DNA from: the human T2T-CHM13v2.0 reference genome, Homo sapiens
Reading direction: 5' to 3' (one strand)
DNA: 64,000 bases
NCBI RefSeq assembly: GCF_009914755.1
Contig: NC_060925.1
Below are positions 54,756-60,583 of the stretch, in pieces (the first letter of the stretch is position 1; every line of letters starts with the position of its first letter). Both the position numbers and the translations under genes were made by a program. The notes beneath the pieces are model-generated. The model had not been told where the DNA came from. It did no database searches and worked only from the letters and a program-made list of their open reading frames with translations.

Positions 54756-57700
54756 CTATGGTTAGCATGGGAGAGAAAGAAAAAAGAAAAAAATATCAAT
54801 GACTGTACTGACCCATAAGCCCTGGGAAAGGCCAGGCCTCAATTCAATTCTAGGTAGAATGTGGGGCGGGGGGTGCTTCTAAGAGACCCTCTGAGATCTC
54901 TTATACCAGTGCTTTTCAAATTTTAATTTACGAGTCATCTACGCATCTTTCAAAAATGCAGATTCAGATTCAGAATGTCTGGGATGGGGCTTGAAAGTCC
55001 TTATTTCTTTTTATTTATTTATTTTTTTGAGACGGAATCTCGCTCTGTCACCCAGGCTAGAGTGCAATGGCACAATCTTGGCTCACTGCATCCTCCGCCT
55101 CCTGGGTTCAAGCGATTCTCCTGCCTCAGCCTCCCAAGTAGCTTGGATTACAGGCGCACACCACCACGCCTAGTTAATTTTTGTATTTTTAGTAGAGATG
55201 GGGCTTCACCATATTGGCCAGTATGCTCTTGAGCTCCTGACCTCGTCATCTGCCTGCCTCGGCCTCCCAAAGTGTTGGGATTACAGGCGTGAGCCACTGT
55301 GCCCAGCCATAAGTCCTTATTTCTAACAGAGTTCTAAGTGGCAAGGTCTCACATCAGCTTGTGCCATGCCCCTTTTAAGGACTTGGCCAATTGTGCTGTA
55401 AATACAGGCCACCAGAAGTTCAAGGATTTTTATAGAAACCCCATTTGTCTTGTTCACCCTAAGATCTAGCAGTGTTTTATTCAGAGAAAGAATCCAAGCA
55501 ACTGCTGGATAAACTGACACAAGCTATTTAGCTTCTTAGCTCTGGCCAGAGGACCAGGAAACTACAGTGCAGATCAGGAAGCAGAGGAAGGTGAACCTGC
55601 TTCCTTAAAGACCAAGAGCTCAGACCATAGCTCTGGAACACAGCCTTGTGGTTCTGATAAGGAGTTAGAGCTGTTAGGATGAAAGAGCATACTATTTTTT
55701 GGAATCTGCTAATCACTGACACTTGGTTTTTGTATATAACACTGGGGATCCTTATTTCCCAGGCAGATTTAGGGGCCCCACTACATTTCTACTAAGGTAA
55801 TCCCCGCCCCCCCCCACCCGATCTTTCTCTCACATTAAACTTGCTCCCTCAGGGCAAGAACTGTCTTGACTCCTTATTCTCCTGGTTACTAACTGGTCTC
55901 TAGGAAGAAGGTTTACAACATACCTGCTCTGTCTTCATGTGGAACTCTTTGAGCTCATCCTCTGTGAGGGGAAGGCAATTCTCATCATTTTCAGGATATT
56001 CCTGCCAACCCATAGCTTTCAATAACCTGGTGGACGCAGAAGGACAGGTAAAGAGAATACAACATCACTAAGCCTAAGTGAACAGCCCACCACTTTTCAC
56101 AGAAAAGTTTTCTGCCCAGGGGCAATGGATGTTAAAGAAGGAATTTTGTTTTCCTCCCTGTGGGACAAGCTTTAATTGTGGCTACCTGGGTGCTGTAAAT
56201 AAATGGAGGCTCTTCACAGTTGAGAGAGGAAGAGCTAAAGAAGAGACAGTAGAAGCAAAACCAAGACAGTGTAAGGAAGAAAGAGAGCACTTGCAGTCTG
56301 GCTTTTTTTTTTTTTTGGGATGGAGTCTCACTCTGTCACCCAGGCTGAAGTGCAGTGGTACAATCTCAGCTCACTGCAACCTCCGCCTCCCGGGTTCAAG
56401 CCATTCTCCCGTCCCAGCCTCCCTAGTAGCTGGAATTACAGGCGCACACTACCATGCCCAGCTACTTTTTGTATTTTTGGTAGAGACAGGGTTTCGCCAT
56501 GTTGGCCAAGCTGGTCTCAAACTCTTGACCTTGACTGATCCACCCACCTCAGCCTCCCAAAGTGCTGGGATTACAGGCATGAGCCACTGCGCCCGGCCTG
56601 AAGTTAAAAGTATTAAAGTATTGGAGAGTAGATTGTGGAAAAGATGGCTGAGTTTGAGAGAGAACGCTTGATGAGCAACAGGCCAACCTGGGGCATACAC
56701 AGAGAACAAGTTATGACTGGGCCACTTCTCTCTGCATGTGGGACCTATCTATCTGAGATATCTTCTCCAGTATGTTCAAGGTCCTTAAAGGTCAGACACT
56801 GCATGCCCTGTGATGTCCTCCTCACTTACCTGTGCTCTGCTTCTAGAGAGTGTGAGAGAACCTCCCCTTCTTCCACTACAGGGAGGGCAAGACCATTTTG
56901 ATGACAGCCTTCCTCCCCATTTTCCTTTGGTTCAGGTGTGCTGTTGTCCTCCAACTGCAATAAGGAAAAGGAAGGACACAGTTGGTTTAAGGTTCCTTTG
57001 TAGTAATATAAGCAACCTATGAAATCAAGGACTCACGACCCAGGAAGTGTTTTCCAAAAGACAGCCTCAGCCCACAGATTTTTTTCCCCATTTACAAATG
57101 AGGACCTGCTGCATCAACAAACTGATTCTAAAGTTTTAATGAAAAGGCAAAAGATCCAGAACAGCCAACACAATACTGAAGAATAAAACCAGAGTACTGA
57201 TATTACCTGACATCAAGACTTACCACAAAAGCTGGAGTAATTAAAACAGTATGGTAACAGTGCTCATAAGAGGTGTGGGGGGAAAAAGTGTGGTACTGGC
57301 AGAAGATGACACAAATAGTCCAATGGGACAGAACAGAGAGCCCACAAATAGACAACTGATCTTTGACAAAGGAAATACAATGGAGAAAAGATAGTCTTTT
57401 CAACAAATGGTGAGGGAACAATTGGACAGCCACACTAAAAAAAAAAAAATCAATCTAAACAAAGACCTTACAGCCGTCACAAAAATAAAGTCAAAATGGG
57501 TCACAGACCTAAATGTAAAACACAAAACTATAAAACTCCTATAAGGATAACATAAAAGAAAACTTAGATTACCTTGGGTATGACATTTATTTATTTATTT
57601 ATTTGTTTATTTACTTACTTATTTTTGGAGATCAAGTCTCACTCTGTTGCTCAGGCTGGAGTGCAGTGGCGCGATCTCGGCTCACTGCAACCCCCGCCTC

Positions 57701-60583: not shown

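What the first reader, a model, noticed from the sequence alone, without database searches (positions are those of the whole stretch)
55515..58609. Non-repeat 191-bp inverted duplication brackets two GPBP1L1 exons: candidate circRNA or exon-loop-out switch
Seen: 55515-55705 and 58419-58609 are ungapped reverse complements (14 mismatches, about 93%). Copy B is lodged in the A-rich linker of an Alu, so it is the derived copy. Between them lie exons 56954-56830 and 56026-55924: 125+103=228 nt, phase 0 at both ends. Joint skipping therefore removes 76 aa in frame, including the conserved LLKAMGW..EDE motif. A back-spliced circle would be a stop-free ORF containing ATGs. Established: reverse-complementary intronic matches drive back-splicing, exon skipping and ADAR editing. 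Inference: a primate-specific RNA duplex with a single dedicated partner, unlike promiscuous Alu pairs; flanking opposite-strand Alus (about 55020-55307 and 58285-58750) could extend the pairing.
Basis: partly seen in the sequence, partly recalled or inferred. Interest (0 to 1): 0.8.

Follow-up and report, generated by a model that had tools for sequence, protein, structure and literature searches.

The report
Inverted intron copy brackets two GPBP1L1 exons
A 191-base piece of one GPBP1L1 intron was copied backwards into an Alu element 2.7 kb away, so the pre-mRNA can form a long duplex around two coding exons, but nothing I could check shows that this changes splicing.

Summary
Arms 55515-55705 and 58419-58609 are ungapped reverse complements with 14 mismatches in 191. 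They are the only two copies in the whole assembly. Copy B splits one Alu at its A-rich linker, with 7-9 Alu bases lost, no target-site duplication and no poly(A). It is therefore the derived copy, made by templated insertion during break repair or replication template switching. Divergence suggests roughly 18-39 million years. The exon arithmetic holds: 125+103=228 nt, phase 0 at both ends, 76 aa, stop-free circle frame. Skipping would remove profile positions 14-47 of the Vasculin domain. The RNA duplex is plausible: 181 pairs, -333 kcal/mol, and it forms in a global fold nested inside an Alu:Alu helix. No functional evidence was found. The circle is absent from two circRNA tables and from all searched main texts. 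The reported GPBP1L1 circles I could place use upstream exons. Mismatches show no strand bias or clustering. Verdict: a real, locus-specific member of known kinds, probably neutral; function untested.

The parts
55515..55705 (-). Copy A, the source arm. It is unique intronic sequence in the last GPBP1L1 intron (54756-55923), 218 nt downstream of the exon-12 donor.
58419..58609 (-). Copy B, the derived inverted copy in intron 10 (56955-59835), 1464 nt upstream of the exon-11 acceptor. The first 1-3 bases (ATT) could equally belong to the Alu linker.
58285..58418 (+). Host Alu, left monomer, ending in the A-run of the linker.
58610..58763 (+). Host Alu, right monomer. Nine alignment columns (TTAGCnGGG) are missing between the two halves.
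56830..56954 (-). GPBP1L1 exon 11 of 13, 125 nt, starting in phase 0.
   Evidence: hub annotation
55924..56026 (-). GPBP1L1 exon 12 of 13, 103 nt, ending in phase 0. It encodes Vasculin profile positions 14-47.
   Evidence: hub annotation
55018..55307 (-). Alu in the last intron. In the global fold it is the outer-helix partner of Alu 58780-59075.
58780..59075 (+). Alu in intron 10, the outer-helix partner (252 pairs in the global fold).
57615..57909 (-). Alu inside intron 10. It competes within the intron for the three (+) Alus and pairs with 58006-58280 in the global fold.
58006..58280 (+). Old Alu in intron 10 (22% from the window majority), paired with Alu 57615-57909 in the fold.
56305..56598 (-). 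Alu in the intron between exons 11 and 12. It pairs with the host Alu left monomer in the fold (112 pairs), which would loop out exon 11 alone.

Best explanation
A 188-191-bp piece of the last GPBP1L1 intron (copy A) was copied in inverted orientation into the A-rich linker of an older Alu 2.7 kb away in intron 10. The likely mechanism is a non-retrotranspositional templated insertion: break repair with copied filler DNA, or a replication template switch to the nearby opposite strand. The event is old, roughly 18-39 million years, and both copies have since drifted as neutral sequence. As a by-product, the pre-mRNA carries a private 181-pair intronic duplex that brackets exons 11-12. It lies nested inside an Alu:Alu helix. 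Shown here: the structure, the copy number, the junction anatomy, the frames and the thermodynamics. Inferred: the mechanism of origin, the age and neutrality. My best guess is that the duplex forms in some transcripts and gives at most low-level back-splicing, skipping or editing, without a selected function.
For: 1. The arms are 191 nt with 14 mismatches.
2. The assembly holds only 2 copies, and homology is limited to exactly the 191 nt.
3. Copy B sits between the two monomers of one Alu. Nine linker columns are missing, there is no duplicated target and no poly(A), and microhomology is at most 3 nt (ATT) on the left and 0 on the right.
4. The host Alu is 15.7% from the majority of 38 window Alus (non-CpG 9.5-13.8%). 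That makes it older than most, and older than the roughly 3.9% per-copy divergence of A and B.
5. The K2P distance is 0.078.
6. hg19-to-T2T offsets at five exon borders from window 26729 to 68843 stay within 593,323-593,328. No 191-bp difference lies between the two assemblies, so B is not private to this assembly.
7. Pairing is equal on both strands: 181 pairs on the gene strand and 182 on the opposite strand.
8. The mismatch spacing is unremarkable: a longest perfect run of 49 has P=0.20.
9. The expected circle is absent from the stored part of the Zheng 2016 supplement, from the Maass 2017 supplements, and from all main texts searched.
10. The Alu:Alu pairs around the same exons are as strong or stronger, at -313 to -455 kcal/mol against -333.
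Against: Neutrality is not demonstrated. One genome cannot show constraint. The two circRNA tables are small, and one was cut when stored. The A:B duplex has no competing partner and forms fully in the global minimum-energy fold, so some effect on splicing is physically plausible. Two named GPBP1L1 circles (hsa_circ_0004111, 871 nt; hsa_circ_0012265) could not be placed. The 3' border of the sperm circle, whose sense primer lies in exon 10, is unknown. The mechanism of origin rests on junction features that 18-39 million years of mutation may have blurred.
Confidence: 0.7

Rival explanations
1. The A:B duplex is a working RNA element that brings the exon-12 donor and the exon-11 acceptor together. 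It yields a 228-nt circRNA and/or an in-frame isoform lacking 76 aa, and it is an ADAR substrate.
For: There are 181 of 191 pairs at -333 kcal/mol, and each arm has a single partner. The duplex forms fully in the global fold of 54756-59835, nested in a 252-pair Alu helix. The frames are as stated. The general principle is established (recalled: Zhang 2014, Ivanov 2015, Liang and Wilusz 2014). A paper titled 'Reverse complementary matches simultaneously promote both back-splicing and exon-skipping' (PMC8330042) was seen in a listing only.
Against: No circle with these borders appears in two atlas supplements or in any main text. The reported GPBP1L1 circles that I could place use an acceptor near window 68843 and donors at 66555 or 60443. 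The mismatches show no RNA-strand bias. Skipping would remove the first half of the Vasculin domain, which makes a damaged product more likely than a regulated one. Copy B is transcribed about 2.7 kb before copy A, so intron 10 may often be spliced out first (inference).
Confidence: 0.2
2. Copy B is an L1-mediated retro-insertion of an RNA fragment into the Alu linker, a known endonuclease target (class 1 templated sequence insertion).
For: The A-rich Alu linker resembles L1 endonuclease sites (recalled). The + strand of copy B equals the sense pre-mRNA of the copy A region. The two classes of templated insertions are described in PMC5110952, of which I saw only the start of the abstract.
Against: There is no target-site duplication, 7-9 bp of target were lost instead, and neither end of the insert has a poly(A).
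Confidence: 0.05
3. The 191 nt belong to a dispersed repeat family, or the pair is an assembly artefact.
For: None found. The genome search tool warns that it skips very common words.
Against: Two places only, at E<=0.001 and at E<=10 with a wider query. NCBI's listed mask begins at 58607, right at the B/Alu junction (hub table). hg19 offsets are constant across the region.
Confidence: 0.03

Closest known systems
Intronic reverse-complementary matches that promote exon circularization and exon skipping. Inverted Alu pairs and non-repetitive complementary sequences are recalled from Jeck 2013, Zhang 2014, Ivanov 2015 and Liang and Wilusz 2014. PMC8330042 was seen in a listing only.
   Same: Two reverse-complementary stretches lie in the introns on either side of internal exons, at 218 nt and 1464 nt from the splice sites. 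The duplex is as stable as the local Alu pairs.
   Different: The match is not a transposon pair but a private two-copy duplication. No circle or skipping product was found for these exons.
Mouse Sry circular transcript, flanked by a long locus-specific inverted duplication (recalled: Capel 1993, Dubin 1995).
   Same: A locus-specific, non-transposon inverted duplication brackets exonic sequence.
   Different: The Sry arms are many kilobases long and the circle is documented. Here the arms are 191 nt and no product is documented.
Templated sequence insertions without L1 hallmarks (class 2), and replication template switching (FoSTeS/MMBIR, short template switches). PMC5110952 was seen as the start of its abstract only. 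Onozawa 2014, Lee 2007, Hastings 2009 and Loytynoja and Goldman 2017 are recalled.
   Same: The inserted DNA is copied from elsewhere. There is no target duplication and no poly(A), a small target loss, 0-3 nt of microhomology, and a nearby inverted donor.
   Different: The event is fixed and old rather than polymorphic or somatic. An RNA or a DNA template cannot be told apart from the sequence.
Intronic inverted Alu pairs that shift constitutive exons to alternative (recalled: Lev-Maor 2008).
   Same: An intronic duplex across exons could favour skipping. Three (+) and three (-) Alus surround the same exons.
   Different: The arm pair here is non-Alu and has no alternative partner.

Membership tests
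Circularization-promoting intronic complementary pair (RCM) | Reverse-complementary sequences in the two introns that flank the candidate circle | tested here: met
   191 nt, 181 RNA pairs, -333 kcal/mol. The arms lie in intron 10 and the last intron.
Circularization-promoting intronic complementary pair (RCM) | A back-spliced product of the bracketed exons is observed | tested here: inconclusive
   The expected hg19 borders (about chr1:46095247-46096278) are absent from the stored part of the Zheng 2016 supplement, from the Maass 2017 supplements, and from all main texts. Large databases and raw reads were not available.
Circularization-promoting intronic complementary pair (RCM) | Pairing across the exons wins over pairing within one intron | tested here: met
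   A and B have no other partner. All 181 pairs form in the global minimum-energy fold. This is an equilibrium model only.
Templated insertion without L1 hallmarks (class 2) / template switch | The insert is a copy of another genomic site | tested here: met
   93% identity to copy A, the only other copy.
Templated insertion without L1 hallmarks (class 2) / template switch | No target-site duplication and no poly(A); small target loss or microhomology | tested here: met
   Nine Alu columns are missing. ATT is shared at the left junction and nothing at the right.
L1-mediated insertion (class 1) | Target-site duplication and a 3' poly(A) | tested here: not met
Dispersed repeat / transposon family | Many copies in the genome | tested here: not met
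   2 places in 3.1 Gb. No Dfam library was available.
Vasculin domain (PF15337) in the bracketed exons | Match above Pfam's gathering score | tested here: met
   Exon 12 scores 58.8 bits over profile positions 14-47. The last exon scores 55.2 bits over positions 48-97. The cut-off is 27. Exon 11 gave no hit.
ADAR-edited intronic dsRNA | Clusters of A-to-I sites in both arms | not testable with these tools
   No editing database or reads were available. The literature listings show gene lists only.

The most novel reading that the evidence does not exclude
A catarrhine-specific templated insertion created a dedicated, competitor-free RNA clamp around GPBP1L1 exons 11-12. It measurably diverts transcripts into a 228-nt circle with an endless reading frame, or into an isoform that lacks the first half of the Vasculin domain. 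That would be a clean natural case of a splicing switch born from one repair event rather than from transposon pairs.
Probability: 0.1. Interest if true: 0.55.

Novelty: new member of a known kind. Interest (0 to 1): 0.3.

Why it matters
If the duplex acts, it would be a datable, single-event origin of an intronic RNA structure with only one possible partner. That makes it a cleaner model than promiscuous Alu pairs for testing how complementary introns steer back-splicing and skipping. As it stands, it is a well-defined example of an inverted templated insertion into an Alu linker. The bracketed exons encode part of the only recognised domain at the C-terminus of GPBP1L1.

Tried and rejected
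- Dispersed repeat: rejected, because the genome holds only 2 copies.
- Known RNA family in the arms: none. The only Rfam hit in 54700-59900 is SRP, inside the Alu at 55027-55174.
- Selection on pairing: there is no strand asymmetry (181 against 182 pairs) and no unusual mismatch spacing (P=0.20).
- Phrase searches across table columns in a supplement returned nothing, including a positive control. Searches are therefore uninformative.
- Exact-span mapping of hsa_circ_0008774 failed because of a 1-nt indel between the assemblies. It was then solved from the splice sites.
The passages behind searches were therefore not read.
- Earlier findings of this scan were not open.
- hsa_circ_0004111 (871 nt) does not equal any sum of exons from the 68843 acceptor down to exon 12 (408, 567, 692, 795 nt). 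This assumes that no exon lies between 66555 and 60583, and the circle's place remains unknown.

Full report
**Observation.** The two arms are exactly as described. The repeat finder reports 55515-55705 and 58419-58609 as a 191-nt inverted pair, 93% complementary, with 2713 nt between the arms. The alignment has 191 ungapped columns and 14 mismatches: 9 transitions and 5 transversions, only one of them in a CpG context. A search of the whole 3.1-Gb assembly with copy A found 2 places out of 2 candidates scored, namely A and B. A wider 614-nt query (55310-55923) at E<=10 again found only itself and copy B, and copy B matched only over query positions 206-396, which is the 191 nt. So the homology has sharp ends and the segment is not a dispersed repeat. 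The tool warns that very common words are skipped, and no transposon library was available. NCBI's listed repeat mask starts at 58607, essentially at the junction of copy B and the Alu (hub table).

**Which copy is derived, and how it arose.** Copy B sits inside one Alu. The stretch 58285-58418 aligns to the left monomer up to the A-run of the linker. The stretch 58610-58763 aligns from TGTGGTGGC onward to the right monomer. The nine columns TTAGCnGGG that five neighbouring Alus carry between these points are missing. There is no duplicated target and no poly(A) at either end of the insert. The first three bases of copy B (ATT) could equally come from the Alu linker, which gives 0-3 nt of microhomology on the left and none on the right. 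Copy A lies in unique sequence.
- An Alu cannot assemble around a pre-existing segment, so B is the insert and A, the only other copy, is the likely donor.
- These junctions do not fit L1-driven retro-insertion. They fit a templated insertion during break repair, or a replication template switch to the opposite strand nearby. These mechanisms are recalled from the literature; for PMC5110952 I saw only the start of the abstract.
- Whether the template was DNA or the local pre-mRNA cannot be told. The + strand of copy B equals the sense intron RNA of copy A.

**Age.** The K2P distance is 0.078, and the 95% interval of the raw difference is 4.1-12.0%. With recalled primate neutral rates of 1.0-2.2e-9 per site per year, this gives about 39-18 million years.
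- The host Alu is 15.7% from the majority base of 38 near-full-length Alus of the window (non-CpG 9.5-13.8%). That is more diverged than most of them, which is consistent with an old Alu hit later.
- 'Primate-specific' therefore follows from the Alu host (established knowledge) and from the divergence. No other primate genome was available to test it.
- Copy B is not private to this assembly. hg19-to-T2T offsets at five exon borders between window 26729 and 68843 stay within 593,323-593,328, so no 191-bp difference lies between them.

**Exons.** Exon 11 (56954-56830, 125 nt) and exon 12 (56026-55924, 103 nt) have AG/GT borders. Together they are 228 nt, begin and end in phase 0, and encode 76 aa.
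- Joint skipping joins ...DKLED to LRRNGF... in frame.
- A circle of the two exons has no stop in frame 0 and carries in-frame ATGs at offsets 138 and 213. This is automatic for such exons.
- Exon 12 matches Pfam Vasculin (PF15337) over profile positions 14-47, and the last exon matches positions 48-97.
- The paralogous locus on contig 5 matches only residues 41-76 of the 76 aa, at 67% identity.
- Skipping would therefore remove the first half of the only recognised C-terminal domain.

**Would the RNA pair?** On the gene strand 181 of 191 positions pair (4 of them G:U), and the duplex energy is -333 kcal/mol.
- The local Alu:Alu pairs give -313 to -455 kcal/mol, and unrelated pairs give about -75 to -105.
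- The region holds three (-) Alus (55018-55307, 56305-56598, 57615-57909) and three (+) Alus (58006-58280, the host Alu, 58780-59075). The Alus therefore have alternative partners, including one inside intron 10. A and B have none.
- I folded all 5,080 nt from 59835 to 54756 for minimum free energy. In that fold B:A forms all 181 pairs, nested inside Alu 58780-59075 with Alu 55018-55307 (252 pairs). Alu 58006-58280 pairs with Alu 57615-57909 inside the intron (219 pairs). The host left monomer pairs with Alu 56305-56598 (112 pairs).
The right monomer can stack outside A:B, but the left monomer's match to 55245-55308 would cross it (coordinates).
- This is an equilibrium model. In the cell, copy B is made about 2.7 kb before copy A, and intron 10 may already be gone by then (inference).

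**Evidence of function.** None was found.
- I calibrated hg19 coordinates with a NASP circle, chr1:46066056-46068037 (184 nt). It equals window exons 26729-26801 plus 28604-28714. The calibration predicts the candidate circle at about chr1:46095247-46096278.
- Numbers with those prefixes occur 0 times in the stored part of the Zheng 2016 supplement (PMC4823868, cut when stored). They occur 0 times in the three Maass 2017 supplement files (PMC5660143). In main texts, 4 papers held one of the four number prefixes, and none concerns this locus, going by their titles and abstract starts.
- The GPBP1L1 circles that I could place lie upstream:
  - hsa_circ_0008774, chr1:46105881-46108171, 267 nt (passages and supplement rows). 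It equals exons at window 68843-68771 and 66748-66555.
  - chr1:46099767-46108171, whose donor is exon 9 at 60443.
  - chr1:46124699-46126897.
- A sperm circGPBP1L1 assay uses a sense primer in exon 10 (59906-59926) and an antisense primer at window 68804-68823. Its 3' border is unknown to me.
- hsa_circ_0012265 and hsa_circ_0004111 (871 nt) could not be placed.
- Listings for GPBP1L1 with ADAR, RNA editing or exon skipping show only gene-list papers by title.
- Within the sequence, pairing is no better on the gene strand than on the opposite strand (181 against 182 pairs). The longest perfect run of 49 is expected by chance (P=0.20).

**Comparison with what is known.** In mechanism, this is the familiar case of intronic reverse-complementary matches that favour back-splicing and skipping. 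The nearest analogue in being locus-specific rather than transposon-derived is the mouse Sry inverted duplication (recalled). By origin, it belongs with templated insertions that lack L1 hallmarks, or with template switches. It meets the structural criteria of both kinds. The defining product, a circle or a skipped mRNA, is not shown.

**Verdict.** This is a real and well-defined feature of known kinds. The specific locus appears undescribed in the texts I could search. The functional reading remains a reasonable but unsupported hypothesis. I put it at about 0.2 for any measurable effect and about 0.1 for the bolder switch reading. Interest is 0.3.

Noticed in passing
window 26729-28714 (+): A published NASP circle (hg19 chr1:46066056-46068037, 184 nt) equals the alternative exon 26729-26801 plus exon 28604-28714. 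The circle therefore uses an exon that the selected transcript lacks. The T2T span is 5 nt longer than the hg19 span.
   Followed up: partly
window 58006-59075 (+): Three Alus lie head to tail in the same orientation in intron 10, antisense to GPBP1L1. This intron is also the downstream flank of any circle that ends at exon 10, such as the sperm circGPBP1L1 assay suggests.
   Followed up: partly
L003 2555-4843 (window 66555-68843, outside the window): The main reported GPBP1L1 circle, hsa_circ_0008774, consists of exons of 73 and 194 nt in an open frame. At least two reported circles share its acceptor.
   Followed up: yes
window 55027-55174 (-): An Alu monomer reaches the Rfam gathering score for metazoan SRP RNA (71.1 bits against 70). 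This is the expected kinship of Alu and 7SL, not an SRP gene.
   Followed up: no
window 58006-58280 and 15487-15765: These two Alus are 22-24% from the window majority, far older than the rest, which lie at 5.5-16%.
   Followed up: no
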